Shown: positions 11,679 through 52,990 of the stretch, one piece after another
How positions within the stretch are numbered: the first letter of the stretch is position 1
How the letters are laid out: each line of letters opens with the position of its first letter
Assembly (NCBI GenBank): GCA_008632985.1
Contig: QPGO01000009.1
Coordinates: 186,001 to 250,000 of the forward strand
Source of the DNA: Psammoneis japonica
Taxonomy: Eukaryota
Direction of reading: 5' to 3'
DNA: 64,000 nucleotides
Position numbers and translations under genes: made by a program
The notes under the pieces: model-generated
Database searches by the model: none
Told to the model about the DNA's origin: nothing
The model's input: the letters and a program-made list of their open reading frames with translations, nothing else

Positions 11679-12045
11679 TGCAGCATGCGACTGTTATATA
11701 CATATCTATGATTATATATTATTTATATGTCAATCGTACCACAGTCGTGGATGCGTACAAAGGACAGAACGATCACACAGAGTTGATCGGATGTCGAGAA
11801 TTGCAAATACGATCGATTGACGATGTTGACATCTTACGTGTCAATAGCAATCGTATCCGGACAATCTGTTGTCACGAATATATTCTCCGAAAGGCCTTTT
11901 GTCTGTAGAAGCAGTACAGAAGCTTTAGGCCATTGAGAACTCGTTCGGAGAAACCAAAAATCACAGAGCAAAATTCAATCTTATAATTTCCACTTTTCGT
12001 ACACTATTCTACTTTCGTTTACACTCGTTCTTCGAGCATAGTGCA
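11679..12045 (+). repeat. 5' LTR of the gypsy element
   Basis: 364/367 identical to 16052-16418 by manual alignment; imperfect terminal inverted repeats TGCAG(C/T)ATGC...GCATAGTGCA. Confidence 0.93.
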
Positions 12046-15000
12046 TTGTGTATACACACCACAGAAGGTAAAAAGCACGGAAAATGAAAATTTTAACTAA
12101 TGTGCCTTTGTAAATTCTTCTACAAACAGGAACGAATCGCACCAGTTCTGCTGGAATCGATTTCCGAGCGGAAGAAGCTCAAGCCGAGCAGTGCCTCAAG
12201 ATGGAACGCTGTTTTTCGTCTACCAGACAAGAGGATTCGCTTTAATACGGTCTATTCCAAGCACCCAAGGATCAAGGGCTCTCAAGCACACCGCATTGTC
12301 AAAAAATCTACACCAAGTCATGGTTGCAGAGAATGCAAGTTCCGAGTCGATCAGGTCCGAGAAATACGTCTACCATGCAAGGAGAGACTATTGGAGAGTT
12401 TTTTGAGACCGAATCGATGATCCTCGAGTCCAAGGAGCAAGAGGGAATCGTTGGAAAGTACCTCAAGCGTCTCATAACTCATGTCCTCCGAGGAAATGCA
12501 CTTCAGAATCAGGGAAATTATTTTCGAGACGACCTGAAGAAACCAGAGCCGCTCAACAGCAAGAAAGCCTCTGACAGACCCAAGAGGTCAACGATGAGAG
12601 TCTATACAACCCTCAGATGGATTCTAAGTCGAATCTAGCGGGAAACCGAGCGCTGATTTATCAGCTATCACTCGCACCGCAAGGATGGCAGCATCAGTCT
12701 ACTGTCCAAAACAATCAACTGTTGCAACTCATCCTTGATGAGCTGATTAAGTTTTGAGTCATCTAAAGGTCGTTCATGACGTCCGTGACGAAAAAACATA
12801 TCAACTCAGGCTCTGACAGCGCAGTTGGTTCCAAAATAAAAAAGGTTCCAAATTTGGTTCCAAAAATGGTCTCCCACATGGTGCCAGAACAATCCAAAGT
12901 GAATGCAAGGTCTTATCTTTGAAAAAAGAATGCCCACATCACGGATTGAAGCTGTTCTAAAAATGAACTAGCAAAAGAGTGCAAGGGTGACTCTGAAAGA
13001 GACCCAAAAATGCGCCGTTCAAATGGCAATCGCACGCGGTCGCGTCGCGATAACGAAAATGCCGCTCGCAAAAAAAGAGATGAACGTCATGATTGATCAG
13101 GCGGTTCAAAAAATGCTCAAAGCGAGTTCCTTGAACAAAGAAAAAGAGCACAAGGGCAAAGAATCAGATTCTGATGCCCTCAGTGAAGAAAAACACCAAT
13201 TTGATCGGATGATCCAGACTGAATCCGAAGAACAATTTTGGTCCATTCACGAATTATGTGCTTTGCTGGACATTAGGAAGCCCCAGAAAAAAGGCAGAAA
13301 TAATTCATGCTAGTCCAGGAGTCATCATTTATATGAGTGCTTCCTTGGGAAAGGAGAGAAAAAAAAAAAGCATCTACGTGTTCCCATCGATGACGGAACA
13401 TCGTCAACCATGATTTTGCGCAAATTCGTGCGAAAGTTGAGAACACAAGAATCCGCCACCAAAAACTTGGGAAACCGAGGGTGAGCTCTTTACGACTGAC
13501 AGCAAACACCGAATTCAGTTCTCACCATGCGAAATTTAAGGCACACTGACATGCAAACAGTGTGTGTTGAAAACACCAAATTTTCTTCAGGTTCAAATGA
13601 TGTGATCATGGGACGCGACTTAATGTCCAGTCCTGCAAGTCACATTGGACTACGCAAATGAAGAAATCTAATGGGAAGAAGCAATTGCCTTATGAAGAAT
13701 GTTCGTGCACTCTTCGATGTCGATGTTTTCAAGCTGAAAACCGATCACATTGAAAAACATGACGCCGTGAATGGAGTCAACAACGGAACCAATGGTCCTC
13801 GACTCACATCATCACGCCATCGATCTTAATCAAGTGACAACTGCGGCGATGCATCCAACCCAAATGAACACAACCAACTCAATCTTCTTCTTAAGAGGTT
13901 GAAATTGTTTTGAAAAGTTCCTCAGACGAATGCATGGGAAGCATCAGTGGATCTCATCGTGGAAAATCTGACGCGATTCCACGACGCGTGAGAACCTTCT
14001 CCTGTCACAGTCTTTGGAGGCGTCCAATCAAAAGGAGTTTGACCTGTCATGAAAGATTGAAGTCTTGAGAATGAAATTGCTCTGAACAAGTCGCTCTGAG
14101 ACTCATTGTCTAAAGAAAACAGGTCGAGTTTGACCGCATCCGACACTCAGAAGCTTGGTGTGAGGTTCACACAGGTGGTGTGTCCTTTGCCCAACATTCA
14201 GGAAATGCCATTGAAGCAAGAACGTTTCATGTGTGTGATCCATTTGATTCAAACATGGAATGCCGCCATGTCAAATAAAAAAAGCACACGTCGTGCTCAC
14301 ACGAAAATCATGCCGTGGGGAGAAAATGAGTGCTGTGGACTTCCAATGAGAATCCACAGAGCCCCAGACATTTTTGTGCAACACTTGAGTGAACTCATGA
14401 CAGGTTTGAAGTTGTCAGAACGACCACATGTGATCGTTTGTGCCTGACAAAAGCAACTTCAAAATGTCACCTGTGCAAGCAACAGCTTAACACGGCATTC
14501 AAACAGTCGCTTAGAAGGTTAACAACAAAAGTCCTTCACTGTTTGACTTGAAAAAAAACTGTCAAGACTTCCATGCGCAATGACATGCAATCGATTGCAA
14601 AGAAAATGGAGGCGATTCAAGCAATCGCAACACGAGAAAAATGCAAAGAACACTGCGACATCTCGTTGCCATGCGTTGCTGTTGTCGAGACATGCAGTCT
14701 CAACGATCTCCTGTGCAATGCTGGCCAAATTCACCTCAACAAAGGTCAAACGGCAAAAGCACAAGTACGGAACGAAAAGTCTCTGAAAATGTGGAGCGTG
14801 TCAAATCAAAAACTGCGTTGTTGTCATGCACGGATTTCAATGTTGTGCGTTGCGACGGAAAAAAGAACTTCTGTCCACAGTGAAAACACTTGTAAAATTC
14901 CGAAATGTGCTGTTTGGCCAACATGTTTGTGTGTGTGCGGATCACAAGACACAATGGACAAAGTCATGCGTTGACGACTTACAATGGAAAAACTTCAGTC

Positions 15001-16051
15001 CCGAATTAAAATGCAGCGAGAGCAAGGCGAACATCGTCGCGATAGACGCGATCAGCCGACTCACTGCAGAAAATTGAATCCTACGACAATGTCCTGCCGT
15101 TAAAACGGGACACAGACATTCCCTCCAAATTGTTGGACGCGACACATCATACGAACACTTTTCGTGGAGGCGAGCGAGATCGAAAAATGCTCATGTCACA
15201 AGGACAAAATCGCCTTTTTAAAGGACGATTTAGGAAAAAACAGCGACAGATTGGTGCACATTATGCGCGTCCACTTCACACTGGCAAAAGACAATCTCAC
15301 AACACCCGCGCGGTTGCATTGCACAATGTGCGAGGCAAGACATTAAAATGGACATCATGTCGACACACGAGATGTGCCAAAGATCTAGACAAAGAAAAGA
15401 AAAATGGACATTCACCCCACTCAGTGCACGAAAGCAGTGCCTTCGGAATGACAAAACAACACCGGCATGTCAGAAAGAAACGTCCAAATGACGATTAAAA
15501 TCCAACTGATGGATGGTTGAAGCACAAAAAAAAAAAAATCCACAATGGAATTCACAACCATCACAGGATTGATTGTCAAGACGAAATGGTCACAATGTCT
15601 TTGACCATCGTTTATTATTACTTATGAAACGTGGTGGTGCAGCAGAGCAACATGGCACATAAAGTAAGCCCGCCAAACTACATGAAATCCACAAGTAAGT
15701 AAGTGAACGCCACGATTAAGAGCGTACATTAAGTACTGGGCACGATGCTATGTACAATCGACATCAGGAGAAATACTTGCTCCAGGACAATTAGTCCTTG
15801 TGTTCATATCAACAAGAACGTCAATGAGAATACTCGACGTAATACCACATATATACATGTTAAGTGAGAAACAAACAATGTCACTCTCAAAAGACATTCG
15901 GAAATTGGAACGGCCCTATATTGCCTATACAAAACAACAACAGTCATTGCTAATGGCACAATACAGTGAAAGTGGAGACATTATTGACACTGTCGATGTC
16001 CGTCGAATAATCCACTTACAAATGACTCTAATGTGCAATTAGGGAGGCGAA

Positions 16052-16418
16052 TGCAGTATGCGACTGTTATATACATATCTATGATTATATATTATTTATA
16101 TGTCAATCGTACCACAGTCGTGGATGCGTACAAAGGACAGAACGATCACACAGAGTTGATCGGATGTCGAGAATTGCAAATACGATCGATTGACGATGTT
16201 GACATCTTACGTGTCAATAGCAATCGTATCCGGACAATCTGTTGTCACGAATATATTCTCCGAAAGGCCTTTTGTCTGTAGAAGCAGTGCAGAAGCTTTA
16301 GGCCATTGAGAACTCGTTCGGAGAAACCAAAAATCACAGAGCAAAATTCAATCTTATAATTTCCACTTTTCGTACACTGTTCTACTTTCGTTTACACTCG
16401 TTCTTCGAGCATAGTGCA
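16052..16418 (+). repeat. 3' LTR of the gypsy element
   Basis: Direct repeat of 11679-12045 at a constant offset of 4373; preceded by the polypurine tract. Confidence 0.93.
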
Positions 16419-16880
16419 GCCCGGTGCTCCCCAAGCACGCCACTTGGAATCTGCTCCGCCTGAGCATGCGCTCTCTCAACTGCCATTTTGTGATCCCCAG
16501 AGAGACCCCTGCTGGAGTGTGGTGGCCAGCAGGAGGATCCCTTCATTTTGTGCTTGGCCACCACACTGCACGTGACCGTGCTTTTCCCTTTTGGCAAGGT
16601 CAAACCTGCGCTCGTTGCTGTTGTTGAGCCCTGGGTGTGCAGCGCCAGCTGCCCAAACCTTGTTTTGCACTGGAAGCGAGGGACCCCCCCCCCCCCCCCC
16701 TTGTTTTTGCAAAGGCAGCAGAGACCTTGTGGCAAGTGAAGAGGAGTCACTGCTTGTGACCTGCGCAATGTGCGGCGCAATGGGTGTGGGTGGAGGTCTT
16801 TCGTCATGATTTCCCAAAGCGCGGCTGCTTCACGCACGCTGGCCAAGGATCGCTCGCGACGCTCGACGCACCGGGATGCA
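16419..16880. mobile_element. TpA-depleted degenerate repeat remnant (continuation of the sequence interrupted by the gypsy), with a poly-C tract
   Basis: No TpA between about 16420 and 16880; C-run at about 16684-16700; joined to about 11100-11678 through the TSD. Confidence 0.55.
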
Positions 16881-17285
16881 CTACGTTGTCGTCCACCAGC
16901 ACCGGCACCGGTACGATCAGGCACGTGCTGTAGGGTCCGTAGGGTCTTACACAAAAGACCCCATGCATGTAGTGTTATCCATGTACGTAGGTTTTGAATT
17001 TATTTCTAACGCAGGATATTGCGCCGCCGCTCAACGGTCGATCGAGTCAGTCATAACGTCGCCGCCTACAGTACAGTGTACCGGTACCGGCAGGTACAAT
17101 GCCCGCCCTACGTACAGTACGCCTGTGGATACAGTACCTACCCTCACGCACACACTCTTGCGATTGCAGGTTCAACAACACGAGTCAGATCTATCTCTGC
17201 GGTACATAGACCAGCTGTCAGTCTTATGTATTGCTCTTTTTTGTTGCATCTTTGATCTTTAGCGCTCAAGTAGCGTCCTTTGACA

Positions 17286-19580
17286 ATGGAGAATGAGAAT
17301 AGCCCCAAAACGTCGTCTCTTTTAGCGAGTCTAACAGGAGAAGCGGACGGATTTCCTCTCGCCGTAGATGACAGTACTCCCGCTACGGACGAACCGGAGG
17401 AAGATCTCTTTGGAGAAGTGCCGATTGATTCTCCCCCCGCAACTCGTAAGCCAGCAACTTCTTCAAGTTTGTTGGAATCCAGTGGACTGTTAAATGATGG
17501 AGGGTCTTCTGGAGCAGCCAACGGTGGCGGCGGTGGCTTGTTTGATGATGTCGACGCTCTGCAAAAGCGGCAGGAAGAAGAGCAAGAGCGACGGCGGCAG
17601 GAAGAACTTCAGCGCAAGCAGCTAGAAGAGCGGGAGAGGCAGCATCTTCAGTTACAGAAGCAGCAAGAAGAACAGCAGCGTCTTCAGCTACAGCAGCAAC
17701 AGGAGCAGGCAGCATACGCTCAGCAGCAGCAGCAGGTACAGCAACCGACGTACCCCCAGCAACAGCAGGACGCTTATGCAGTACAGCAAATGCAGCAGCA
17801 ATCCATTTACGGTCAGGGGCAACAGCAGGGGGGTGTAGTGTATCAGCAGCAACCGCTGCAACAGGGCCATCAGATTCCACCTCAGGTTCAACAGCAGCAT
17901 GCTCCAAACAACATTTCGAATCCTCTGGTATCTCCGACTCAAGGCGGGTTTTACAGGAATCACCAGGAAGTTCCTTTACAGCAACCACTGTCTTCTTCTG
18001 GCATGTATACGAATGGCGGGATGCTCAGCTCCACCACGATGGCACCAACCGCTGAAGGTCGCTACCACCATACAACCGCCATGCCACAGCAAAAGCCTAG
18101 CATTATGGCTGGATTGCATAACACGACAGGTGGTACTGGTTTGGGCCTGCAATCTCCGATTATTACTGCGCCTCCAACCCACGAACCAATGTTTGGTCGT
18201 ATCAAGGTCAGCGATCCTATGCTGCAGAACTCCGAGGGTGGTGGACTCATGTCCATGATGGTTCCTTCGGCGCCTCATTGGACATATCAAGTACAGACGG
18301 AGTTGAAGCAAGATTTGGGCGGACTGTGGATTGTCAGAAGGCGGTTTCGTCACGTCGTGGCTTTGGAAGAGCGATTGAGGCAAGATGTACCTGGAGCTAT
18401 TTTACCACCACGGTGAGTAAGAACCTTCTCTCAGAGGTACGATTCAATTCGAAGTGTTTCTGACTGTATACTCTCTTTCTTTGGCAGACCTGACAAGCAC
18501 GCAACACGTGCTTTGGAAGAAGCCTCCTCGAAACAGTCAGCGGAATTTGCTACTCAACGTGCAGCCGAACTGGAAGTCTACCTTAATGCTTTGGCTCAGC
18601 ACCCCATCGCTGGTAACTCTCCCGTGCTGAGATTGTTCTTGGCGTTGCAGGATGATGTAGGTACAGCATGGCCAGAAGTTTCGTCGAATGCCATTACGAG
18701 ACTTACCAATGTCACAGCGGGGGCGGCTATGAAAATCACTGACGCCACGGCGGACGCTGCTACTCATCTTCCGTGGGCATCATCTTCGAGTGGTGTCATG
18801 GCTGGAGTAGGAGATGTATCGGAAGATTCTGCGGAACTCTTGGCTCTGGCATCCAGCGAGCATGTCCGTATGGGCGCAGTCACGCAGGCCGTTCCCAAAC
18901 TTGAAGGAGCTGTGACGCTAATTCGAGAAGAAGGAGAACGCGCGGGAGGTGTTGGGGTTGAATTGAATAAGCTTTCCAAGGATGTGGAAGGCTTCGATCG
19001 CGACTTGAGTGTGCCACTGGAAATCCTTGGCAATGGAGCTTTGCGCCATGGTCGCCGTACCAAACGATTAGGCCTTGAGTTGAGCGCTGCACTCGACCCT
19101 TTTGTGATGCAATTCAAGCTCTGCAAATATGAAAAGCTGGCCTTTTCCGATCGCCGCAATGCGTTGGCCAGGAAGCAGAAGGAACGTTCGAAGGCGGATG
19201 CTACAGCCCAGCGTCTTGTCGTCGTTCAGCGTGGAGGTGGCGGCCTTGGATCGGATGGAACTGGTGTAGGCAACTTAGAGCGAATGGAAGCCGAGGCGTC
19301 GATCATGGATAAGGTAGCCGTTGATGCGATACAAGAATGCGATGAGATCGGGCAACGTTTGAAGAGCGAAGTAAATCGCGTGTCGTATGAACGCAGGCTG
19401 GCTTTCAAGAAATCGATCAAAATAATTGCAAGCTCTTTTAAGGAGGCTTCGTCCGAACGGAAGGCAGTATGGGAATCTGCCAGGGATGCTTTCTACCAGG
19501 CGTACCCAGATGACTTTCCAGCACAGCAACAGAACGAAGGTAACACCGTAGGTGGCGGCGTTGCTGCCGGAGGCGGATAG
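17286..19580 (+). CDS. Sorting nexin, PX domain plus BAR/Vps5-like C-terminus, Gln-rich N-terminus; intron 18413-18487
   Basis: PX motif VRRRFRHVVALEERL...ILPPRPDK across a GTGAGT..CAG intron; RAAELEVYLNALAQHP; coiled-coil C-terminus. Confidence 0.85.
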
Positions 19581-19604
19581 ATGGTAGCCAGCATGGCATT
19601 CAAT

Positions 19605-20377
19605 AGAAACCTTTTCTTCCAGCTTTCTGATGTCGCAGTTACTAGAGTCGTCTTTCAAAGCACGGCGAAAACGAGACTAGAGCAGGACTGGACTGCATGC
19701 TACCGGCACCGTGCAGTAGAGGCAGTGCCGGACAACAGTTTCCAACCGCACTCCACTCTCCGTCGCGGGCTGTGCAACGGTTCATCACGCGCCAATGTTG
19801 TCACCACGACAACTGGCATTGCACCCCGCAGCCTCACTGTTGCTGCTGTGAGTGCCCCAAAGCAGAATATGGCAGGACAACTTGAAGGAGAGATGGACAC
19901 AAAATTGGACAATCAGAAATGCCAATTCAAGGTGCAGAATTGGAATTCATGCGGTTCTCAGTGCCTCACCACATTTTTTAGAAAAGAGTGAACAATCAGA
20001 AACCTTTTCTTCCAGCTTTCTGATGTCGCAGTTACTAGAGTCGTCTTTCAAAGCACGACGAAAACGAGACTGGAGCAAGACTGGACTGCATGCTGCCGGC
20101 ACCGTGCAGCAGAGGCGGTGCCGGACAACAGTTTCCAACTGCACTCCACTCTCCATTGCGGGCTGTGCAATGGTTCATCATGTGCCACAACTGGCATTGC
20201 ACCCCGCAGCCTCGCTGTTGCTGCTGTGAGTGCCCCAAAGCAGACTGTGGCAGGACAACTTGAGGGAGAGATGGACACAAAATTGGACAATCAGGAGTGC
20301 CAATGCACGGTGCAGAATTGGAGTTCATGTGGTTCTCAGTGCCTTGCCACATTTTTTAGAAAAGAGTGAACAATCAG
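19605..20377 (+). repeat. Tandem duplication of about 393 bp (19605-19997 and 19998-20377)
   Basis: Both copies run AGAAACCTTTTCTTCCAGC...GAAAAGAGTGAACAATC; copy 2 has a short deletion and more TA/CG transitions. Confidence 0.9.
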
Positions 20378-22280
20378 TTCATCATTGGCTCATCATGAGT
20401 TTGTCCTGTGCCTTTCTACTTGGAGCCATCCACTCGCACACAACAAAGAAAACCCACTTTGGCAAGCGGCTTGCCTGGTTCCACGCGCTTGCCCAACAAC
20501 ACGCTCCGACGTGTGTCCTTGGTCCTTTGCCCTTGTTCTTTTGAAATGCAAGCCTGAATCTGCGAAAAGTGACTCAACATGTTTTGGATGCTCTTTCACC
20601 AATGCTTGATGGCAGACTTGAAATCAAAGCAAGATTCAAACAGTGCTGGGTTTGGAAGTGGCATCGTCTCAATTTTTTCAAAGTGTGAGCCTGGGCCCTT
20701 GATCCTGCAATCAACAAGAAGCAACTTGATGAGTCTTGGACACTGGCTTGCCATTGTTGCAGCTTGTTTGTGGAGCTCACTTTTGACAACAAAAGTTTTT
20801 GTAAGATGTTGACTTTTTGACCAGGAAGGTCAAAGAGTCCATGGAAGCATTGCTCACATCACAATGACTTTGTTGTCTCACCCCACCTCAATTGAACATG
20901 GCAACCCATGTGTGCAGAGCATTTGAATTTGAGCTGCATGTTGGAAGATCAGGAGAATCCTCAAAGAGACTGCTGAAAACTCAGCGCTGTTGTCAATTTT
21001 GACAAAGCACCCATCAAAGTCATTTTTTGACAAATCTTGGGCTCCAGAAATGAGGGTGGAAGGATCAGGGAAGGACTCTGGGCATGGATTCAGGGGTGGT
21101 GTTTGCAGCGGCACAGGAGCTCCTGCTGGACAAGCAATGCCAGCAGGAGTGCTGGGGTCAGAGCTGGCTGGAGGTCAAGAGTCAGATTCTGAGTCAGAGG
21201 TCCAGACGGTTGTGCTGCTGGCAGTCCAGCCAGCTTCTAATTGGCAGGAGGTGCTGTCGGGATTGACGACAAAGTCAGAAATGGGGGTGGTGATGGCAGA
21301 GACACAGGCCATAGAATGGGGCTGGGAGCCAGTGGCAACACACTTGGCAACATGAGCAATGCTGGAGAAAGAGCAGGATCTGATGTTCGAGGTGGAGATG
21401 GGGAAGGATTTGGTGCAGGAGGAGGCGGCATTGGGAGGGTGGGAATTTGTGCTGGAGATGATGCTGGAGGAAAAGCGGGGCTTGAAGATGGAGCAGAGAC
21501 AGAAGCGCAGAACAGGCCTGATGGCAGAGTTGATGTGTGATTTGTCAGCTGCAGCTCCGCCATCATTGGCGAGTTGCTGACAGCAGGGGGGGAGGTTGTT
21601 GGGGGATCTGATGCCAGCAGGCCAGCTCTTGAGGGCTTTTCAACACTTCCCAGCCCAGGAGAAGCTCTCTCTTTTGACACCAGCCAGTGCCTCAGCCACG
21701 ACACCTGGTGCCACAACAACAAATGTCACAATGCTGAGAAGGAGCAGCAGTGCACCTCACTTCTTGGCTGAGGAACAGGCTTTTTTTTTTTTTTGCCAGC
21801 AGCTGCCTTGCACTCAGGATTTTTGAGCTTGGCTGTTGGAGCAAGATGTGTTGGTGTGACTGCAACCTCTCCTGCTGTGCTTCTTTTTCCCTGGTGGCTG
21901 TCCTTGCAACAACTGGTTTCTCTTCAGAGCCCAGATGATGTGCTGCTGCCTTCTTCACAAGCACCAGGAAGTGCAGCTGGCCGCACCGCCACTGGGTTGA
22001 TTTCTCCCCTCCTCTCACCTTGCCAAAAATTGCTTGCAGACTGTTCACCCAAATTGTGACAGTTGCCTTTTGCGACTTCTGCTTGACCTGTGCATCATGA
22101 TTCTGGTCACTCATGGGAACTTCCAGAAATGGCTTCAAACCAGGCTTTGTCATGTCGTCTCCGCTGTCATCATCAGCATTCTCCACGTTTCGCCAACTTG
22201 TTGCTTGAAAATGACACACAATTCTATCACTGAGACCTGTTCCCCAATGTAAGGTCCTTTGCTGCTTTGTGTCCAAGTTG
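20378..22280. mobile_element. TpA/CpG-depleted degenerate repeat or gene relic of unknown family (Pro-rich ORF remnants on the minus strand)
   Basis: Near absence of TpA, Tyr-free broken ORFs, no recognisable domain. Confidence 0.45.
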
Positions 22281-22530
22281 TGTCTGGCATTTTCCCCGCG
22301 CTTTGTTAACCGTTAAAGGCGAGGCGGGACTAACCAAGTGGCGGATACAACGTGTCGGCCGAAGGGCTCATCGCTTACTCTACTAGATTATTCAATCCCA
22401 TTCAAAGTACGATTGGGCTTCGCTCTTTCTTCAATAGCAGAGTGTGGTAAGCCAAGTGAAAGAAAATGCTAAGCATGAGCCTATGTACCTATGTTACATA
22501 AACGAGGAGTTAACTCAACACTACTCCCCA

Positions 22531-24405
22531 CTAGTACCCATCAATGAGTTTGCTCAAGTACGGGACTACCTCGTCAAGTGGCACACGTACTTGTTCGGTT
22601 GTGTCGCGGTCACGAATGGTGACGGCATTGTCTTTTTCGATTGTATCAAAATCAACCGTAATACAAAACGGTGTTCCCACCTCATCAGCTCGTCGGTACC
22701 GTCGTCCAATGGCCCCGGCAGCATCCCAGGCAACATTCCAACGAAGCTGCAATTGCTCAAACAATTTTTGTGATGTCTCAACTAGCTCTGGCTTATTCTT
22801 GACAAGAGGTAGGATGGATGCCTTAATGGGAGCAACACTCGGATGGAACTTGAGAAAGTTACGTTTCTCTCCTCCAATCTCATCTTCCGCGTACGCAGAG
22901 CATATCAGCGCCAAAATCAAACGGTCGACACCGAGGGATGGTTCAATGCAATGTGGGATAAACTTCTCCTTGCTTTGCTCGTCAAAATACTCCAAGTCTA
23001 AAAAGAGAATAAGTTTTAAGTGAGTACGACGTGAGGTCACCGCTGCACATGACAATATCAATGACACTCACTCTTGCCGGATCCTTCTGAATGTTGTGTC
23101 AAGTCAAAGTCGCCACGAGCGGCAATTCCCATTAGCTCTTGGGTTCCAAATGGAAACTTGAATGTAATATCTGTACAAGCACGGGCGTAATGAGCCAATT
23201 TGTCTCCCTCGTGAACGTCCCAATCCATCAAATCCTCCCGGAGCCCAATCTCAATCAACCACTCTTTCGAATCTTGCATCCATGTTTCGTGGTGCGGTTT
23301 CCACACCTCCTCATCACCGGGCGGGATGAAATACTCCACTTCCATTTGCTCGAATTCACGAGAACGGAAGATAAAATTGCGCGGTGTGATTTCATTTCGA
23401 AAAGCTTTTCCAATTTGAGCAATGCCAAACGGTATCTTTTGACGGGAAGTTCCCTGGGCGTTTTTGAAGTTGATAAAGATTCCCTGGGCTGTCTCCGGCC
23501 TTAAATAGGCAATAGACGATCCATCCGTAGCAGCGCCAACACTAGTCTGAAACATAAGATTGAAATCGCGAGGCATGGTCAAAGTAGGCTGTCCGCTGGC
23601 GGGCGATGGGATTTGTTCCATTTCCTCCTCCGTTGCTTCGACTAATTCACGAAAACTGAATCCTTCAATTGGAGTTCCTTGCATGTCTTTCGCTTTCAGC
23701 TGTTTCTTGGCCTGTTTCTTCGCAGACTTGACCATATCTTCGTCGTTGCCTTCCTGAACGCAGACAAAGCCTACAGTTTCTCCGGTTTCTTTCACCACGA
23801 TTGGAGAATAAAAGAGCTGATCAGCCCGAAAACGCAGCTTTGTCTCTTTACAATCCACCATTGGGTCCGAGAATCCATCCAAGTGCCCTGCAAGACGAAC
23901 AAGTACCACCTGAGAATCTAAACGTTTGCTTTCGAACGTTATGATAACACACAAACTCGATACACTTACCTGAACTCTTCCAAGTTGTAGGATTGTGAAT
24001 GATGCTAGTATCCAGCCCCACAACATCTTGCCTACGAGTCACAAAGCTCCTCCACCACAAGTCCTTGACATTTTTCTTCAGTTCACTCCCCAACGGACCA
24101 TAATCGTAAAATCCTGCGTATCCGTTATATATTTCTGAAGAAGGGAAAATGAAACCGCGTCGTTTACACAAACTGACAATGTCATCCATCGAAACCTGCT
24201 CATACGCTTTCTCGTTGACAATCGGCTTTTTACTCTCTTTGGTTTCCGTTTCAGAAGCCGTGGCAGAAAAGTTGACGACATTCCGACGTAGCGATGGGAC
24301 CGTTCGTGCTACTACTCTCGGGTTTGAGATGAAGGCCAACATTTCATCAAGTGTAAGGCACGCCACGACAACCCACAGAAAAAACCGAGCGGAACCGATA
24401 GACAT
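22531..24405 (-). CDS. GARS: Glycyl-tRNA synthetase (alpha2/class II type), organelle-targeted; introns 23888-23969 and 22998-23071
   Basis: Motifs [94 protein letters not shown]-terminal signal peptide followed by LAF; both GT-AG introns restore the frame. Confidence 0.95.
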
Positions 24406-24714
24406 GGCGTTTATTGTTCTCTGGATTTTCTCGACTGCGTCTCAGTCTCAGTTACAGATCTCCCGAGGAAATGTCAAGTAGATCACAAACTAGTGTGATG
24501 TGTAACTGCGCTGGCGTTTGTTCTGTGGTGTTGTGTGTCTTATGTGGTGGTGAAATAATGCTGTAAGGCATCTCGCAGCAATTTGGAATTCAGCACGTCG
24601 TTGGCGGGAGGTGTCGGAGGTGGAAGAAACGTCAGCGGCGGCGCGCGAAAAGACCGCGCGAAAGATGGTCTTGGCGGGAAAGACGTCATTTTTTCTACGG
24701 CACGAAGGTTATGA

Positions 24715-27395
24715 ATGCTCACCATGCAGTGCGCAACTCGTGTCGTTCCACGACTGACGCTTCACAACATGCAACACCGCAGGGCCTGGGCTCCAGATTT
24801 GTTTCGTCAGATCCGTGGCATGATTTGCAAGATCACCCGGCACTCCCGGGTGCTCTCCCCAGACTCCCCAGACTCTTTTTCACACTGGAAAAGGATGCTG
24901 CTTGGAGCCACAGCAGCCCCTGGTGCCGCGGATGCTTTGGAGGCTTGGCTGGCAGAGCAGTTGCCTCGGCAAAGCTGCCGTCAGCCAATGCTCCACCTTT
25001 TGGGGCTGCTGCACGGCACCCTCAAACTTGAGAAACCAAGACATGTGCTGCAGGCCTGGCTCTGTGGGAAAGAGCAAAAAATGCAAAGAGCCGCAACTGA
25101 GAAGGGGGAGAAAAGACTGAGACATGCAGACTTCTTGCTGTTGCTGGAAGCACAGCAGCAAAAACAGCAAAAACAGCAAAAGGCAGCAAAAAAGGCAGTG
25201 TGCCTTGCATCTCAAGCTGCGCCAGCAGCTGGCCAAAGGTTGTTCCTCACATGGGGTCAGACACCAGGTTTGCTGGACAAAAAGCTGTGGCACGAGCAGG
25301 TGAGCCATGAGTGCCCTTCCTGCCACCCACTGAAGAGCTGCCAGATGAAGGGCAAATTTTGCCAGCAATCTGGAGGCTTTCTGGTTTGGTTGAAAAAAGA
25401 TTGGGCCTCACAGGGGTTCTTTGAGAAAAAATTGGCTTGGCTGGCCCGGCCAGTGCTGCAAAGAAAACACCAGCACAAACTTGTCAGCCTTTTCCTGCAC
25501 ACATCACACAACCCAAATGGAGAAACATGAGAACCTCCCTTTTCTAAAAGCTGCGCACATTTTGCTGCCTGTCAGCTTGTTTGCTGCAAGACTTGCTGCT
25601 GTTTTTGTGTCTCACAGCTGAGCCAGAGACTGAGGTGGACCAGCTTCAGCGCTGGCGCTCTTCAAGCTGACCACTCTGGACAAACAGGTGCCCAGTCAAA
25701 CTTTGTTTCTGTCTAAGACTCGTTGATTTGACTCTGCTGTCTGAGTCAGTGAGCACAGCACACTGTCCCATTGGTTGAAAGAGCTCTTCCAAACAAGAGC
25801 ATGGGAGCTTGCACTCTGACACACGCTGCTCCAGCGCCCCCACCTGCACTCATGCTTGGTGCTCATGACCCTCTCTTCCTGCTCTCAACATGAAAAGTTC
25901 AGCTTCGTCACTTGCCATCAACTCTTTTGCTTGCCATGATGTCACAGCTGCTGGCCCCAACCATCAGCTGCGCCAGCAAGGTTCTGGGTTGATCTTGCCC
26001 CCTTTGTCCCACAGCTCTTCTCTTCCCAATGACAAAATGATGCAGGAAAGGAACAAGGCAGTGGCATGAGAGCAAAGGCTTGTTTCAAGCTCTTGTGCTG
26101 AGCCTGACCGGAAAAGGGGCGAGTGCCCCTTGCTTGTCGTTGACTTCCCGCACATCATCGTTTGATTGTTCCCTTGACTCGCAATGCCTGTCATGTGACA
26201 CAAGGTCTTGCTGTTGCACTAGCACGGCAAAATGGTTTCTGAGGAACAGAGCAAAAATCTTTGTCATGGCTGCAGCAAAGCTTTGACGGATGCACGGCTT
26301 TTTTGGCCATCAGTGCAGAGTGCGTGTCACTCTCCAAAGGCGGGCACCAACTCCTCACAGATTGAGTCGGTCCTGTTGCAGATTAACTTTTTTTGTGGAA
26401 TCTCACTTGGTCACACCGCTGCCTTTCATCATCCCAAACTGGAGTTTGCTAAAAGTCTCACTCCCTGGCCCCTGACACAAACCCCAAACCCCAACCCTGA
26501 CCACGCAAAACTGTTTTTTCTAAATGTTGGGATGCAGAAATGGTGAAGCCATGCATGGTGGATTCCTTTTTGTGGCTCAATCTGTGACAGGCACAAATTA
26601 ATCTGTCAGGGGCATTTTTTCTCCAAAGGCACCCTCTCAATCCTTTCCTTCTTGGCAACTCTTTCATGTGCGGTCATTTGATGCTTTGGCATTTGGACCA
26701 ACAGCGCTGTTTTTGGTGGGAGCATGGACACTCATTTTGGCAGCTCTTCATCAGCCGAAGTTGCTGCGATCCCAAGCCCACGTGCTTGGCTGTGCACCCA
26801 CCCACACCTCGTCATCATTGATGACTTGGTTTGACACGTTGCAGATGAAAACCTTTTCCCAACAAAGACAGAGAGCTGTCAAAAAGCAAAGTGCTGGACT
26901 CCCTGGCTTGTGAGGTTGGCAGTCGACCACAGCACATGGAGAAAGTCAAAGAGCAGGTTGCGCCAAACCCGCGGCAAAAGCACCCAGCCAACATGTGCCG
27001 TTGCGCGCTGTTCTGCATCTGAGCATGCAAAGGAGATTGCTTCTCTTGTTTTGCTGTCTGCTGTCTTGCATTGTCAGTGCTGCTGGGCACTGTGATGCCA
27101 GTTTCTCGTTTGACAGCCCCAGTGCCTGCTCATGCTGGTGCTTCGGCGGCGTGCATGCTGGCTGTCGCCTCATTTTTTGCAACGCTCTTGGCTGCTCTGC
27201 AAAAACAGCTTGTCATCAGCATCGTCGGAAGGACAACATTGAACATCACCATCATCTTGATGCATCGTCCATCGTCCATGGTGTGTGACCACCTGGATGA
27301 GCGGTGGCAGTGCGGCGTGTTGCGGCACTCATCACACAAGGCTCATTGTCAACACAGAAAGACAGACAGGCAGACAAGACAGACAGCTCGCGCGC
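24715..27395. mobile_element. TpA-depleted degenerate element with convergent ORF remnants, between the GlyRS and LHC genes
   Basis: Sharp-edged domain with almost no TpA outside TTA/TAA; Tyr-free ORF 24715-25530 (+) and broken minus-strand ORFs. Confidence 0.5.
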
Positions 27396-27557
27396 ATCTA
27401 TCTAATCTCAGATGTCGGATGGATTCCTAATTCCTTCTCTCCGCATGCGTGGCGCGACAGGTTGAACTCAAATCCTCGCGATCCTTTTGTGATTGCCAGC
27501 GGCTGTTGTCGTGCGCGAGTTTGTTGCATCCCCGAGGACCTAAGAACTGTTTTGACC

Positions 27558-28417
27558 ATGAAGTTTGTATCTGTTTTGGCTCTCTGCGGTTCGGCGTAAG
27601 TGGTCTTGTCGACATTTTGTCTTGAGAATGAATGGGAGCAGTTTGATGGTTCAATAAAGGAGTCCAAAATTGGACTAGGGATCATGGATGCGGAAGCGTT
27701 GTTGTGACATCAGCTCTTTCTCCTTCAGTGAGACATTCGGTCCGCACCTGGCCAAGCATCTGACCAGTCAGCTCTTTATCTACTCGTCCTATAAATTCCT
27801 GGTTGCTGGTGTTATCTATAATTCTCACGATCGTCTCTGTTGTTCCTCGCGTCATTTCTGATCACCTCAGCGCGGCATTCGCCCCGGCATCACAACGGGC
27901 TGCTACCACAACGTCACTTTCGGCATGGAAGGATGAGACCGTTGTTGGAATTACTCCTCCTATGGGTTACTTTGATCCCCTTGGACTCAGTAAGGGAAAG
28001 AGCGACGATACCATGAAATTGTACCGCGAGGCTGAACTCAAGCACGGCCGCGTGGCCATGGCCGCCTGTCTTGGCTGGTACATTACCGCCGCCGGTGTGC
28101 ACCCTGCTTTCAACTCTGAGCTTTCCAGTGACCCTCTTCAGGCTGCAAAGGAACTTCCCGTTGTCGGATGGCTTCAGTTTGTGTTGGGTTGTGGCGCGAT
28201 TGAATGGCTTGCCGCTCAAATCCGTCAACGCCCCGGATACGTTCCCGGAGACATCCTCGGAGCTTCCTACTGGGTTGACGACAGCGATGAAGGATGGGTT
28301 GACTACCAAAACAAGGAAATTAACAACGGACGACTTGCCATGGTTGCGTTCATGGGTATCCTTGTTCAGGATCTGTACTATGACAACTACGGTGACATGA
28401 TCTTCAAGCAGTCGTAA
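27558..28417 (+). CDS. Light-harvesting fucoxanthin-chlorophyll a/c binding protein (LHC/FCP); intron 27596-27870
   Basis: MKFVSVLALCGSA|AAFAP bipartite targeting sequence; GYFDPLGL, REAELKHGRVAM, KEINNGRLAMVAFMG. Confidence 0.95.
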
Positions 28418-37184: not shown

Positions 37185-37229
37185 GTTTATTAGATTGTTG
37201 CAAGCTCGGGTTAGCGTGTGGTGCTTTAA

Positions 37230-39260
37230 CTTTTCAAGGCGACATTCAAGACGTTCAGAGTGCTTGTCATGCATGGACGATGCGTGCATGGACGATGGAC
37301 GACGTCTCCGGCCTTCTGGCCACCTGCCAGGCCGTGCGCGCATTTGGGATTTTGCCCGCCTTCGGCTGGTGGCACTGGGTGCGGCATTGTGCGGCATGCA
37401 AACGAGAGATGCAGAGAACACAGAAGATGCATGATTCTTCTTCTGTCAAGCGTTCACCTGACTCGCCACAGCATGCATGCACTGGGATTAACAAACTTTT
37501 TCAGTGCAAATTCTGTGTTCACCACATTCTTTGGACAGCCGCTGTCCCTCCAGAGATGATGGCGCTGGGCGTCATTTTGCCCTGCCCAGCAGAGATTGGG
37601 CAATGGCAACGAACAACCCCTCTGGCCTCTTTGGAGAAGGAGAAGGGTGTGAAACCCTGGGCTGAGAAAAACACTTGGGGCATGAATTTGTCTGAGAGCT
37701 TTGGAGAAAAAGGTGTGGGGTGCTTCTTTTGGCTGCGGCAGAGGAGTGGCCAAGAGCTCAGCGGCTCTTGCTGCGCTGTCAAAAAAGATGATGGTGAGCA
37801 GAGAGAGCTGTTGCTGCCGCTGCAAACTTGTGCACACTGAGCAGCTGTGACACCAGAGCACACTTTTCTCTGTGCGGCCTCTGGCGGCTCTCATCTTCTG
37901 CAGCCACCGGCGTGCCGGCACACATGCGCGCGCCACACCTGCCAGCTGCTTTGGCAGCAGCTGCACAAGATGAACAATCTGTTGATGCGCGCATGGCATC
38001 ACAAAGAGCCTTGATGAAAAACAAGCCATTGTCTCCCAGGGGGGGGGGGGGGGGGGGGGGCACATTGCAAAATGATGTCTGCCACATGGCTGCATGGCTG
38101 CTGACAAGCGGGCAAGTTTGGTGCCATGTTGTGTGAAAAAGCAGGGCTTGGAACACAGAGCAACATGAGCGGTGCTCCGGCGCTCATGTTGTTCAGAAAG
38201 CAGCAGGCAGTGCCAGCAGGAGAAAAGCACCATGAGTCCCACATGTGGTGTGCAAGTGCTGAACTTGCCCTGGCACTCAGTGCACAAATCAAAGCACAGC
38301 TCAAACTGGTGTTTGCAAGCAGCACACGCCGCACAATCTCAGCCAGCATTGCACGCAGCACTGTGCTGCCACTCACTCCTGCAGAAACCCATGGGGCATC
38401 GAGGGGGTGTGGCATTTCGACGCACATTTTCAGCATGCACACCAAAGAGCAGCGCTGCTGCAAGACAGGTGTGGAACAAAAAAGAGCTGTTGTTGTGCCT
38501 GTGCTGGCCTGTGAAAAAGTTTTCACAGCACAAGGCTGGGCTGGCTTCCCCCTTTGGTGGGGGGATCTTGCCAGAAGCCAGCGCAGCAGCCTCCCTTCCT
38601 CTTGTGCAGCCACCTTGGGCTGCTGCTTGTCTCTTGCACAAGCACCACCACCACCAGCAGCAGCAGCAGCATTTTGCACTTTTCAAGCCATTTCTTCTTC
38701 TTTGCCTGGAAAAGCAAGCTTGTGAGTTTTGTGCTTGCTTGCGCTCTTGTCTTTTTGCCTCTGATGGAAATCACAAGCCAAGGGGGGTTGCACAAAAAAA
38801 GTTTCTTTTGTTTGCCTCTGGCCCACTTTGCATCCAAAAAAGAGCCAGCTGGGTCAAGGGGCAAGTGTTGTTCCAAGAGAAAATGGTTGACAAATCAAAA
38901 ACCTGTGCTGGGTGCAGGCTGGCGTGGCATGTGTGGCCAATGAAGCAACTTTTTCTTTGGTTGACAGGCAGCTGGGAGACTGGAGCAAGCCAGAGATGCA
39001 GCAAACAGAGCAAGTGCCACCCTGCTCTTCTTTGTTTGTTGGCCCTGCAGCAGCACTCAACAGCTCCAAGCAGAAGCACACAGTTGGGTCATTGTGGGGC
39101 TTGTGTGTGAGCAGCAGACCCCTTCACATGCAAGTGCTCCACAGTGTCAACCCCTCCTCCCCCCCCTTTCCACCACCATCGCCACCACCACAGACAAAAA
39201 GAGCCGCTGTGCATGCAACAGCAAATGCTGGGTTGCCTGCCCCACCCCCAAGCAAGCAAA
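37230..39260. mobile_element. TpA-depleted degenerate repeat with a poly-G tract
   Basis: Almost no TpA for about 2 kb; G-run at 38039-38060; peptide HQQIVH shared with the 51635-52990 domain. Confidence 0.5.
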
Positions 39261-39536
39261 AAATGTAGGGTCCTTCTGGCTGTTGTCAAAAGACTCTCCC
39301 TGTTAGCTAGCTTGTGCGACTAAACATGCACAAAAGTGGCAAAGCAGTGTCCTGCCGTGCCATGTGGCCGTGCAAGTCGTGCAGGGCATTGCTTTTGAAA
39401 CACTGCACTGCCCGAAGTACATGCATGATGGGAAACCGAATCAGGCAAAATATGAAATATTGTGCATTTACCTTACGTATATACTATGCATATGGACTGG
39501 ATACCATCTCGATGCGCCTTTCCATCTCGGGCTTGT

Positions 39537-40976: not shown

Positions 40977-41799
40977 GATGAGTTGGTGATTGCTATTTGA
41001 AAGATAAAGCAAGCACGAAATGGTGTGAGCATGAGGGCAAACACGACAAAATACCGTGTACGCGTTGAGATCGTGTATTTAGCCGTGTTAGACAGGCACA
41101 ACGATTTTATCCGTACTGGGTACGGCACGGCTCCCAGGAACAAACAGTAGGAGGAAAACACGTGGATTCCTTCTCCGTCACTAGCCACCCCCGCCTCTTT
41201 CTCGAAGCATGGCAATCACTAGAACGACAAGCATCAATCGAATGAAGCAACTTACATGCAGATCAAGGGGAGGGGATGAGGACGTGTGCTATTCCGCTTG
41301 AACAGTCAACAGTGTTCTGATTGGGAGTTGTGCTCCTGAATAAAATGAAGACGAGAGCAGAAGGAAGAATTCTTGTCGTGACGCACGAAATGAAGTTCTT
41401 TTGCCGTAGGAATCCCTACGTTTTGTACGGAGAGCTCGTATCTTTTTCTCTTCCGACTACCGTGTGGCCCTACTGTAAAATGTACGTATGTAAAAAGTAC
41501 GCCCTTGCGGTATAGCGCTTCTAATCGCGCGACTTGCCGGGCGGTGTCACTGACCTGAGCCCTACAATACATCCAGTGCTGAATATCCCTGCATATGCTC
41601 GAATTTGCACCGACATGCTCCAGATCGTGTGGACATACTGTATGTACTGTAGGTTTGCTGGTGCAAATACGTAGAATTTCACGTACCGTAGCTGCACTGA
41701 AGATGGTCTCTGGAGGGGGTCTGTGCAGGCGAGAGTGCATAGGAGTAGGTCTCTGGACGGGCGGGGTCTGTGCACAAGTAGTAGGGACATACTGTAACA

Positions 41800-42830
41800 T
41801 TCACACCGCCCGGTGTCTACCGGCACTCTCTCTCTAGCTACAGGTCTACAGGTACTCGTACTATAACATCGAGAGAGTCCGCCCCACCAGGTGCCGCATG
41901 GAACTAGGCCACTACCTGTACAGTACGGTAATGCTGTGGGTGGGGGCTTACGACGATGCGGCGGGAATACACGCACACTTCCACTCTCTCTCTCTACTAG
42001 TGTAGTAGTTCCCTTACTAGCTAGTAGTAGCTAGTAGTAGAGGTGGTTGAATGCCATGTATGGTATGCGGAAAGAACGTGGAGCTACTTGCGAATGACGT
42101 GCAAGGCCTCTCTAGAGAGTACCGTAGTAGCTGCGCCTTGCTCTACTGTACCCACTACTCTCTACTAGCTAGTAGAGGGCACTACTACAGTGCATGCAGT
42201 GGTATCATAGCTACGACTTAGCAGCCAGGCCAGCCAGTGAGAGAAAAGCGCCACCATCCGTCCAACCCTGCGCGTGCGCATGTACCAGCTCCCACGCGAG
42301 TGGCCTCAGGTTTTGAGTCACATCGATCATCGTCACTATCTTGGCGGCACCAAGGGATGGACACTATGGTACCGTACTGTAGACCTACTGTACAGTATGC
42401 TGACACACGACGTACGACGTAACACCCAACAGTGCGGGCGCAGTGCTACGGTTTCATTACATACAGTAGAAGTGAGAGTAAATTGATACGGTACGTACAG
42501 TAGGTACATGTAGGCCCTATGCGACCCGTGACTACATACAGCACCGGCACCGTTAGGGCTCTACGACCGTAAAGCCTCTACTCTCTCTCTAGGTAGAGAG
42601 CTATGATAGGGCTCTACGACTGTAAAGCCTCTACTACTAGAGTTACTAAAAAAAAAAAACAGATCTACTAGAGCTAGCTAGATAGAGGAACCTACCAGGT
42701 AATCACCGACGAGTGGGAGAGTTGGCACGTACGCTGCGCTCTACTACGGTGCTACTCTAGAGAGACTAGTGCAGTTAGAGTATGAAAAGCGCACACCAGA
42801 TACCACGGCGCTACTTGCTTTGAACTACTG
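41800..42830. repeat. CTAG/CTAC/GTAG/GTAC-rich low-complexity spacer
   Basis: Dense ctactag/gtagtag/ctctctac motifs; direct repeat TAGGGCTCTACGAC.GTAAAGCCTCTACT at about 42554 and 42607. Confidence 0.7.
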
Positions 42831-51634: not shown

Positions 51635-52990
51635 GAGCAGCCACTCGCACAGCAGAGCAGAGCTGCCAGCTTTTAGAGAGTGCAGAGCAGATCTCAAGCG
51701 TTGCTTCCCCCACGAAAAGAACTTCCAATGCCCACACACACCACCACACACAACAAAAAATGTGCACAATTTGTTGATGCACACACAACAATTTAATGCC
51801 TGTGTTGTCCCTGCACTTCATGAGTGCAGTGACAGCATCTTCAAACCATGTGTGTGTGGCCTCTCTGTGTTCACCCCACATCACCTGGGCTGTGGAAGCC
51901 CTCAGCATGGGAGCACAAGCTGGGCAGTTGTCCGCAGGAAAGAAGAGCTGTGAAACCTGCGTCAGAGGCAAAATCAAGTTGGTTGCAAGGGCCTCTTCAG
52001 CTGGAGGGAACAGAAGATCTTTTGTCATGTTCCTGCGGCAGCATCTTGCAAAGCTTGTGAGGCAGAGCAAGAGCTGGGGCACGCGCACTTGGCTGCTTGC
52101 GCCGGCTGTTGAGCTCATTGCACAGCTCCAGAAGAACAAAAGGGGTGCACAGCACAGATCTTTGTTGGTGCTCTCAAGACTTGCCAGCAGCGCTCTGGTC
52201 TTTTCACTCAAAGTGACCCAAAACAATGCAGCGGCTTTGTCGCTGCAAAACCTTGCTGGCCACTCTTGCCACTGGCTCCCATGGCTGCAGGGGCAGAGCT
52301 CCAGCTCTGGTTGATGCTGTGCACCATTTGACCAGAGCTGGCACCCAAAAAAGGGGGTGTGGAGAGCCTCTCATGACACCAGGGGTGCAAAGTTTTTGAT
52401 GCGGGCCTGTCGGCACATCTGCAGGGGAGGGAGCTGGAGGTGCCCAAGCCTTCACGGTCATTTCATGGCACTTTCTCAGAAAAAGAAACAACAAAAAAGG
52501 CAGTGCACAGCAGCAACCCTTGCGTGCTGCGCTCTGTCATGACAGTGATGAGGGGCACTGGCGCCCTGCTGCTTGTGTTTGCAGATGGGCAGCTCGGCGC
52601 CATGGAGAGCTTCTGCCCTTCCACCCTTTGCTGTCCCAAACACATTCTGACCGCAGGTGCAGTGAGGACACTTGAGTGCCCAGGAGTGCGCCACTGGCGT
52701 GCTTGCCAACTTGAAAGCAAAGCTTTTGGCAGCTGAAGGCTGCCTTTTGCACCCTTGTTGGGCTGCAGAGGAGGGGGGCTGTGCGGCACGACCCCGCCCA
52801 AGAAATCATTTCTGCTCAGACACGGGCAGCCAAAGTGCTTTTCAGTGTGAACAAGGTTTTGCCCAAGCGTGGCTCTTGTGTGAAGGAGTGCAAGGCTGTG
52901 AATGTGAAGCCATTGTGAAACTGTTTGGCAGAGCCCGTTGATCCCACACATCATTTTTAGCCAAAAAATGCGCAAACTGGGCAAAACATT
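51635..52990. mobile_element. TpA-depleted degenerate repeat
   Basis: TpA occurs essentially only in TTA/TAA context; Tyr-free ORFs; short peptide similarities to the domains at 16.4-16.9 kb and 37-39 kb. Confidence 0.5.

What the first reader, a model, noticed from the sequence alone, without database searches (positions are those of the whole stretch)
12700..15600. TpA loss is separable from CpG loss
The gypsy interior is TpA-poor but keeps plentiful CpG (for example TCGCACGCGGTCGCGTCGCG near 13030), whereas the older Copia region lacks both. Domain edges (about 16800-16880, 24715-24860, 27280-27395, 37260-37400) are also CpG-rich but TpA-free. Inference: TpA conversion is faster than, or spreads wider than, 5mC deamination, so it is not simply a by-product of CpG decay.
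Basis: partly seen in the sequence, partly recalled or inferred. Interest (0 to 1): 0.75.

Follow-up and report, generated by a model that had tools for sequence, protein, structure and literature searches.

The report
Diatom TpA erasure outpaces CpG decay
In this diatom's transposon DNA, TA steps are rewritten to TG or CA about thirty times faster than CG steps decay, in the same patches, which points to a separate adenine-editing process aimed at silenced DNA and not to a side effect of methylation decay.

Summary
Observation confirmed. 12700-15600 has TpA o/e 0.19 and CpG 0.96; the older block has 0.04 and 0.17. The stretch is a converted tract (12712-15596) inside a young gypsy-like LTR element. 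Across 21 full copies, TA became TG or CA directly, after insertion, on either strand, in kilobase tracts (74-76% converted inside). Only 3-5% of CpG was lost there, about a 30-fold rate gap. Separable does not mean independent: private CpG losses are 6.5-fold enriched in the same tracts and rise with local TA conversion. At old-domain edges TpA drops as a step while CpG slopes down from the same boundary, so 'faster' explains the rims and 'spreads wider' is not needed. One repeat block elsewhere shows the reverse balance. Best reading: a TpA-specific A-to-G mutator and passive 5mCpG decay share one silencing target; enzyme and methylation are not shown. TpA hypermutation is published for Bigelowiella natans, and this scan reported it before on other DNA of this genome, once noting that it shares places with CpG decay. 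New here are the measured rate gap, tracts and coupling.

The parts
12712..15596 (.). TpA-converted tract inside the young LTR element: 76% of 167 scored TA-origin sites are now TG/CA/CG; 7 of 130 CpG sites are lost; conversion peaks at about 13930-14930
11679..16418 (+). Young, degenerate gypsy-like LTR element; 21 full copies analysed among 30 loci returned; an empty-site join is present in run X1
11679..12045 (+). 5' LTR, 367 bp, TpA spared (29 TA) although it abuts TA-free old DNA
16052..16418 (+). 3' LTR, 367 bp, 28 TA; differs from the 5' LTR at 3 positions, all TA versus TG/CA
11675..11678 (+). Target-site duplication GCCC (second copy 16419-16422)
   Evidence: join with 4 shared letters
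2340..11678 (.). Old repeat block lacking both TpA and CpG (o/e 0.03-0.04 and 0.17); copia-like remnants weakly supported; interrupted by the young element and continued at 16419-16799
8736..9697 (.). Intermediate-age insertion whose two halves match the two ends of a second repeat family (loci L036-L041); TA 0.15, CG 0.60
16800..16880 (.). Rim 1: 0 TA, 12 CG, upstream of a PX-domain gene
   Evidence: covered by an X1 contig
19605..20390 (+). Tandem duplicate at the edge of the 19718-22225 domain. Inner versus outer copy: 4 of 7 TA converted, 7 of 17 CG lost. X1 contigs 19635-19998 and 20028-20376 match the two copies with 0 other letters
24565..27399 (.). TpA-poor domain (9 TA, 90 CG) with rims 2 (24715-24860) and 3 (27280-27395), between a tRNA-synthetase gene and a fucoxanthin-chlorophyll protein gene; only about 26342-26630 had detected relatives
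37228..39266 (.). TpA-poor domain with rim 4 (37260-37400: 0 TA, 13 CG)
51675..52958 (.). Further TpA-poor domain (TA 0.01, CG 0.31), not studied further

Best explanation
Two different mutational processes act on one kind of target. After a repeat inserts, kilobase patches of it acquire a silencing state (inferred: CG methylation and repressive chromatin, as described for diatom transposons). In those patches (1) a TpA-specific process changes A to G on either strand, site by site, favouring TAY over TAR, and removes about three quarters of TA before point transversions appear; and (2) methylated CpG decays passively, about 30 times more slowly. Young tracts therefore look TpA-poor and CpG-normal, old blocks lack both, and domain rims, which have had less exposure, have lost TpA but little CpG. 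The TpA process looks episodic or separately regulated, because its ratio to CpG decay is not fixed across loci. Shown: spectrum, direction, post-insertion timing, tracts, rate gap, co-location, one reversed block. Inferred: methylation, adenine deamination (most likely a TadA/ADAT-family enzyme acting on DNA), and a defence role.
For: Direct TA>TG/CA. Direction: the least converted copy scores higher on RT_RNaseH (22.8 bits) than the window copy (15.7 bits on a longer query). Post-insertion: 21 LTR pairs have 176 TA-versus-TG/CA and 92 TG-versus-CA differences, 31 CpG differences and 1 transversion in 7676 columns. DNA-level and unstranded: TG 1571, CA 1363, CG 36; neighbours on the same strand 1909 of 3746, expected 0.50. 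Specificity: non-TA A>G 165 of 30453 in tracts. Rate gap: 74% TA against 3.3-4.8% CpG. Coupling: 97/2915 against 8/1528, within-copy odds ratio 7.9; CpG loss rises from 0.6% to 5.6% with local TA conversion. Not local repair spill-over: conversion is 74-81% at all distances from a CpG. CpG loss looks passive: flat 5' context, 0.020-0.022, TG 63, CA 61; CpH C>T only 23 of 19661. Nesting over 444 kb: TA-poor 47%, CG-poor 31%, CG-poor only 0.05%. Reverse case. Literature: measured TpA hypermutation active in only some lines (10.64898/2026.01.13.699255); CG-methylated TE islands in diatoms (PMC9998398, passages); TadA8e off-targets favour TA (PMC13225742, passages).
Against: No methylation data and no enzyme. 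The deaminases examined look ordinary: a TadA-like protein, an ADAT2-like protein and a guanine-deaminase-like fusion; the other PF00383 hits and the two A_deamin loci were not examined further. CpG loss does not correlate with TA conversion between copies (Spearman -0.02, n=20, 3-11 events per copy). The private conversions of the window copy are not confirmed by reads: run X1 holds 0.44 of the tract's words, against 0.26 free of converted sites and 0.65 seen in other loci, and at 13544, 13906 and 14048 only the other letter was counted. The reversed block is one locus with small counts, and part of its CpG loss may be inherited. Tract states were fitted on the same TA data used for the conversion fractions.
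Confidence: 0.62

Rival explanations
1. One process with a fixed ratio: methylation itself drives both changes, for example error-prone long-patch repair around methylation-linked lesions that miscopies TA.
For: Co-location and dose-response; coincident onset at edges; CG-poor DNA nested in TA-poor DNA.
Against: No dependence on distance to CpG within 200 bp. TA is over 100-fold more mutable than AA (74% per site against 63 of 12301), far beyond the WA bias of polymerase eta as I recall it (no call). Transversions are not raised in tracts. The ratio is about 30 in the young family and about 1 on C312.
Confidence: 0.14
2. The TpA process has a wider footprint than 5mC: it follows a histone mark or RNA guide that extends a few hundred bases past the methylated core, so rims were never methylated.
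For: Median 304-bp offset. All 15 CpG-normal flanks beside converted LTR ends have at most 2.4 TA per 100 bp against 4.2 in host DNA, and about five recover further out.
Against: No CpG-intact plateau in the pooled profile. Flank comparison not significant (15 against 5, p=0.51). Several such flanks are other repeats. The window's own 5' LTR is spared beside TA-free DNA.
Confidence: 0.12
3. The chemistry is a base modification, not direct deamination: N6-methyladenine at TpA followed by deamination, or an oxidised thymine that pairs with G.
For: A palindromic target and heritable-looking tracts fit a symmetric mark; sequence alone cannot tell A>G from T>C.
Against: None direct. Searches for MT-A70 and Tet_JBP found nothing, but their controls were silent too, so they show nothing; bacterial-type adenine methylases were not searched.
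Confidence: 0.08
4. Young tracts are assembly artefacts: modified bases miscalled in long-read consensus.
Against: X1 contigs reproduce the TA-free DNA at 16684-19634, 20348-22876 and most of 23604-28000 with 0-3 other letters each, and both tandem copies with 0. X1 carries extra TA>TG changes at 24542 and 26221. The same contexts resist in young and old DNA. These contigs drop rare variants of multicopy families.
Confidence: 0.04

Closest known systems
TpA hypermutation of integrated viral DNA in Bigelowiella natans (Mettrop et al., bioRxiv 10.64898/2026.01.13.699255; parts 1-3 of 5 read, supplements not seen)
   Same: TpA>TpG/CpA on both strands, confined to foreign or silent DNA, far above background, not always active; TE domains enriched among TpA-poor sequences; ADAT2 proposed without proof.
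   Different: There: a rhizarian, two viral insertions, measured per generation; the words CpG, diatom and trinucleotide do not occur in its main text. Here: a diatom, transposons, 47% of 444 kb, sub-element tracts, TAY preference and a measured link to CpG decay.
CG methylation of diatom transposons by DNMT5 with passive 5mC deamination (PMC9998398, passages)
   Same: Isolated TE islands in an otherwise unaffected genome; CpG-specific, context-flat C>T fits decay of such a mark.
   Different: It does not predict TpA loss. Methylation was not measured here, and DNMT5 was not identified among the 27 PF00145 matches.
Repeat-induced point mutation (RIP) of ascomycetes (features recalled; RID link to diatom DNMT4 from PMC9998398 passages)
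   Same: Dense, post-insertion, both-strand transitions in repeats.
   Different: Opposite chemistry (RIP makes TpA from CpA/TpG). One LTR of a pair is often hit alone (L005: 10 against 29 TA; L007: 5 against 30), unlike pair-triggered RIP.
TadA/ADAT-derived DNA adenine deaminases (PMC13225742, passages)
   Same: A>G and T>C changes with a TA preference.
   Different: Engineered enzymes with no repeat targeting; no natural enzyme is shown to do this here.

Membership tests
Bigelowiella-type TpA hypermutation | Changes are TpA>TpG and TpA>CpA | tested here: met
Bigelowiella-type TpA hypermutation | Confined to foreign or repeat-derived DNA, host genes spared | tested here: inconclusive
   Gene regions keep TA 0.52-0.60 and the tracts studied are in repeats, but most of 24565-27399 had no detected relatives and the 33 domains were not annotated
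Bigelowiella-type TpA hypermutation | Rate about 1000-fold above background | tested here: inconclusive
   Relative only: 268 TA-type differences against 1 transversion in LTR pairs; no per-generation rate
Bigelowiella-type TpA hypermutation | Activity in only some lineages or times | tested here: inconclusive
   Copies range from no tract (L004) to fully converted; C312 block weakly converted; timing not observed
Bigelowiella-type TpA hypermutation | Same enzyme | not testable with these tools
   Unknown in both; an ADAT2-like gene is present, which is expected in any eukaryote (recalled)
Fungal RIP | C>T at CpA/TpG, raising TpA | tested here: not met
   TpA falls; CA>TA 28 of 12551
Fungal RIP | Both copies of a linked duplication are mutated | tested here: not met
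   One-sided LTR pairs L005, L007, L009, L015
Fungal RIP | Premeiotic timing, RID dependence | not testable with these tools
   none
Passive 5mCpG deamination (for the CpG part) | C>T specific to CpG, both strands, little flanking preference | tested here: met
   151 of 5882 at CpG against 23 of 19661 at CpH; flat context
Passive 5mCpG deamination (for the CpG part) | 5mC present at those CpG | not testable with these tools
   no methylation data; C5-methyltransferase genes are present
RNA-stage A-to-I editing of retroelements | A>G on the sense strand only, fixed before insertion so that both LTRs agree | tested here: not met
   TG 1571 and CA 1363; LTRs differ
Ty3/gypsy LTR retrotransposon (carrier element) | LTRs with TG..CA ends, target duplication, gypsy-type pol domains | tested here: inconclusive
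   LTRs and 4-bp duplication met; RT_RNaseH 22.8 bits is below the 24.8 cut-off, and no RVT_1 or integrase hit

The most novel reading that the evidence does not exclude
Diatoms share with a rhizarian alga a genome-defence system in which silenced, CG-methylated chromatin recruits a natural DNA adenosine deaminase that erases TpA in bursts. CpG decay in the same tracts is a slow clock, so the TA:CG loss ratio records when and how strongly the editor acted at each locus.
Probability: 0.33. Interest if true: 0.87.

Novelty: new member of a known kind. Interest (0 to 1): 0.62.

Why it matters
The only published case I found of TpA hypermutation has no known guide and no enzyme. The coupling measured here (same tracts as CpG decay, about 30 times faster, ratio not fixed) names a testable guide, CG methylation or its chromatin, in a lineage where a DNMT5 knockout has been made in a model species (PMC9998398). 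It also predicts methylation borders inside single elements at known coordinates. In practice, transition-based ages of transposons in this genome are unreliable: copies with almost no transversions between their LTRs differ from one another by about 6%.

Tried and rejected
Reverse direction (CA/TG>TA, RIP-like): rejected by three-state columns and LTR pairs. TpA loss as a statistical echo of CpG decay: rejected, because raw TA counts fall from 315 to 67 with CG constant. RNA- or cDNA-stage editing and single-pass strand editing: rejected. Spreading into flanks: inconclusive. Whether CpG losses in the second family are inherited: the allele-sharing tally was confounded by CpG gains and was not used. 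Exact look-up of three window ORFs: 0 of 3 found. Pfam on frames read with X at stops gave nothing for the old block; tblastn with four intact copia RT ORFs gave no hit. MT-A70 and Tet_JBP searches were blank with silent controls, so no conclusion. No RNA holder listed for the tract; run X2 gave no cover over most repeat blocks, which is not used as evidence. Near-place look-up of earlier notes: none; one word look-up: none. Literature searches for a diatom report listed none by title or abstract start; PMC5890265 does not mention Bigelowiella; PMC8845244 had no relevant passage. Rows dropped: 9 of 30 loci (partial copies L017, L023-L030) were left out of the spectrum; 43 of 339 TA sites flagged as frequent outside tracts were removed for the 74%/4.6% figures (76%/12% with them); 18 of 339 were removed; 11 of 27 domains of 2 kb or more were left out of the edge profile as not CpG-poor; 2 of 21 LTR pairs were skipped and included.

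Full report
Setting. The window is bases 186001-250000 of contig C10 of a 91.4-Mb assembly. A light-harvesting gene at about 27560-28417 matches fucoxanthin-chlorophyll proteins best (E 2e-103), so I treat the organism as a diatom. Host gene regions have TpA o/e 0.52-0.60 and CpG 0.97-1.02.

The observation. The interval 12700-15600 has TpA o/e 0.19 and CpG 0.96. The old block to its left has 0.03-0.04 and 0.17, and a younger insertion inside that block (8736-9697) has 0.15 and 0.60. The window thus holds a nested series in which TpA goes first and CpG follows. The four named rims have no TA and CpG o/e 0.71-1.51.

The element. 11679-16418 has 367-bp LTRs that differ at three positions, all TA versus TG/CA, and a GCCC target duplication. 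A contig of run X1 joins 11674 to 16419 at depth 22 against about 60 for single-copy DNA (only 26 letters on the short side), which suggests the insertion is recent and not on every chromosome. The genome search returned 30 loci, of which 21 full copies were analysed. Coding remnants are degenerate; gypsy affinity rests on RT_RNaseH scores below the cut-off.

Spectrum. Across the 21 copies TA counts run from 67 to 315, TG+CA from 873 to 618, and CG stays at 209-226. Of 339 column pairs holding TA in any copy, 238 show TA, TG and CA with no CG, and 30 include a CG. In 21 LTR pairs there are 176 TA-versus-TG/CA differences, 92 TG-versus-CA, 31 CpG differences and one transversion in 7676 columns, so the changes came after insertion and very early. 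Strand choice is even and unclustered (1571 TG, 1363 CA, 36 CG; 1909 of 3746 neighbours on the same strand). This excludes RNA-stage editing and implies site-by-site fixation in DNA. TAT and TAC convert faster than TAA and TAG, and the resistant contexts TTAA, CTAA and GTAA dominate the residue in old domains. Non-TA A>G is 165 of 30453 inside tracts, raised mainly before T.

Tracts. Conversion is patchy within copies. A two-state model gives 76% converted inside and 12% outside, or 74% and 4.6% after dropping 43 sites flagged as frequent outside tracts. Other copies are converted at one end, both ends, throughout or not at all. Of 15 flanks made of old TA-free DNA, 6 adjoin an unconverted LTR end, so neighbouring converted DNA does not by itself convert a newcomer.

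Relation to CpG. Inside tracts 3.3% (private) to 4.8% of CpG sites are lost against 74% of TA sites, a hazard ratio of roughly 27-39. The two are tied in place: private CpG losses are 97 of 2915 inside and 8 of 1528 outside (Fisher p 1e-10; sites are not fully independent; odds ratio 7.9 within the 15 mosaic copies, falling to 2.9 when alleles shared by up to three copies are counted). They rise from 0.6% to 5.6% with local TA conversion. Between copies there is no correlation (Spearman -0.02, n=20). TA conversion does not depend on distance to the nearest CpG (74-81% in all five bins). CpG loss is CpG-specific and flat in its 5' context, as passive 5mC deamination would be.

Edges. Over 444 kb of the contig, 47% is TpA-poor, 31% CpG-poor and 0.05% CpG-poor only. 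At 32 edges of 16 old domains the CpG boundary lies inside the TpA boundary in 30 cases, median 304 bp; simulated coincident edges give medians of 2-66 bp. TpA drops at once to o/e 0.03-0.12, while CpG slopes 0.81, 0.55, 0.39, 0.42, 0.36, 0.28 and reaches 0.20 at 1 kb, with no intact plateau; the first bin is inflated by boundary error, as the simulations show. With a 30-fold gap, 10% CpG loss already corresponds to about 95% TpA loss, so a gradient of exposure gives this picture without a wider footprint (inference). The tandem duplicate at 19605-20390 shows both losses at a rim: 4 of 7 TA and 7 of 17 CG, matched by X1 contigs. Among seven X1 differences over 23604-28000, two are TA>TG (24542, 26221) and two CG>TG (24979, 26671), in a domain with 9 TA and 90 CG left; 24542 lies just outside it. 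Both processes appear recent or still segregating.

The reverse case. In the second family, copy L041 (C312) keeps 48% of CpG, like its five sisters (29-57%), yet keeps TA at 38 of 45 sites where a sister has TA and at 61 of 155 sites where sisters show both TG and CA. The surrounding 22 kb has TpA 0.10-0.67 and CpG 0.19-0.85. A repeat pair there that looks like two LTRs has 5 of 14 TA sites and 7 of 11 CG sites lost in one member, with 8 transversions. The ratio is therefore not fixed, which argues for two machineries. This is one locus with small numbers.

Real or artefact. X1 contigs reproduce the old TA-free blocks they cover and the tandem pair. The private changes of the window's own copy are not confirmed, and these contigs drop rare variants. 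I put the artefact reading at about 4%.

Mechanism. Most likely a silencing state laid down in patches recruits a TpA-specific A-to-G mutator while 5mCpG decays passively. Deamination by a TadA/ADAT-type enzyme is my preferred chemistry, from the TA preference of TadA8e (PMC13225742, passages) and the proposal in the Bigelowiella preprint. The deaminases I examined here look ordinary, so no candidate is singled out.

What is known. Mettrop et al. (10.64898/2026.01.13.699255; parts 1-3 of 5 read; supplements not seen) measured this TpA signature in B. natans and do not mention CpG. My searches listed no diatom report; subscription journals are mostly outside the library. This scan has reported TpA erasure on other pieces of this genome many times, and e1-7615068 already noted that it shares places with CpG decay. 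What is added here is the rate ratio, the sub-element tracts, the statistical coupling, the edge profile against a null, and the reversed block.

Verdict. The feature is real. 'Not a by-product' and 'faster' are supported; 'spreads wider' is unproven and not required. New member of a recently described kind; interest 0.62.

Noticed in passing
L106, L107, L108, L112 (G000 C301, C297) and L115 (C28): Several C5 cytosine-methyltransferase matches lie in TA-free DNA (TA 0.002-0.007 per base; CG 0.039-0.047, but 0.015 in L115), some with stops, clustered on C297: duplicated or mobile methyltransferase copies that were themselves converted.
   Followed up: no
L109:2348-3508 and 1231-2046 (-): A chromodomain match (24.7 bits, just under the cut-off) lies upstream of a C5-methyltransferase domain on the same strand; possibly one chromodomain methyltransferase gene.
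   Followed up: no
G000:C312:19000-41000 (L124, L041, L125): Repeat block in which CpG loss matches or exceeds TpA loss.
   Followed up: partly
window 24565-27399: A 2.8-kb TA-free domain of which only about 290 bp (26342-26630) had detected relatives in the genome search; the origin of the rest is unexplained.
   Followed up: partly
element coordinates about 14200-15340 in L012, L016, L019-L022: Six copies are converted at both ends and spared over nearly the same interior segment, four of them resuming at 15344, whereas the window copy, L002, L003 and L011 show the opposite pattern. Unexplained.
   Followed up: partly
L121, L122: Copia reverse-transcriptase regions with long open frames have low TpA (0.26, 0.39) and near-normal CpG (0.87, 0.88), unlike L120 and L123 (0.68, 0.72): partial conversion or evolved avoidance.
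   Followed up: no
window 41400-42800: TpA-rich stretch (o/e up to 2.0) in an otherwise TpA-poor genome.
   Followed up: no
window 18411-18487 and 23886-23969: Run X2, listed as probable DNA, has contigs that skip these stretches with intron-like ends (GT..AG; CT..AC on the minus-strand gene), so it may be RNA-derived.
   Followed up: no
L096:313-1785 (-): One open frame joins a guanine-deaminase-like domain to a 2-oxoglutarate dioxygenase domain; probably metabolic.
   Followed up: partly
window 39653-39824: Two 46-bp direct repeats, 96% alike, inside an ORF with no Pfam match.
   Followed up: no
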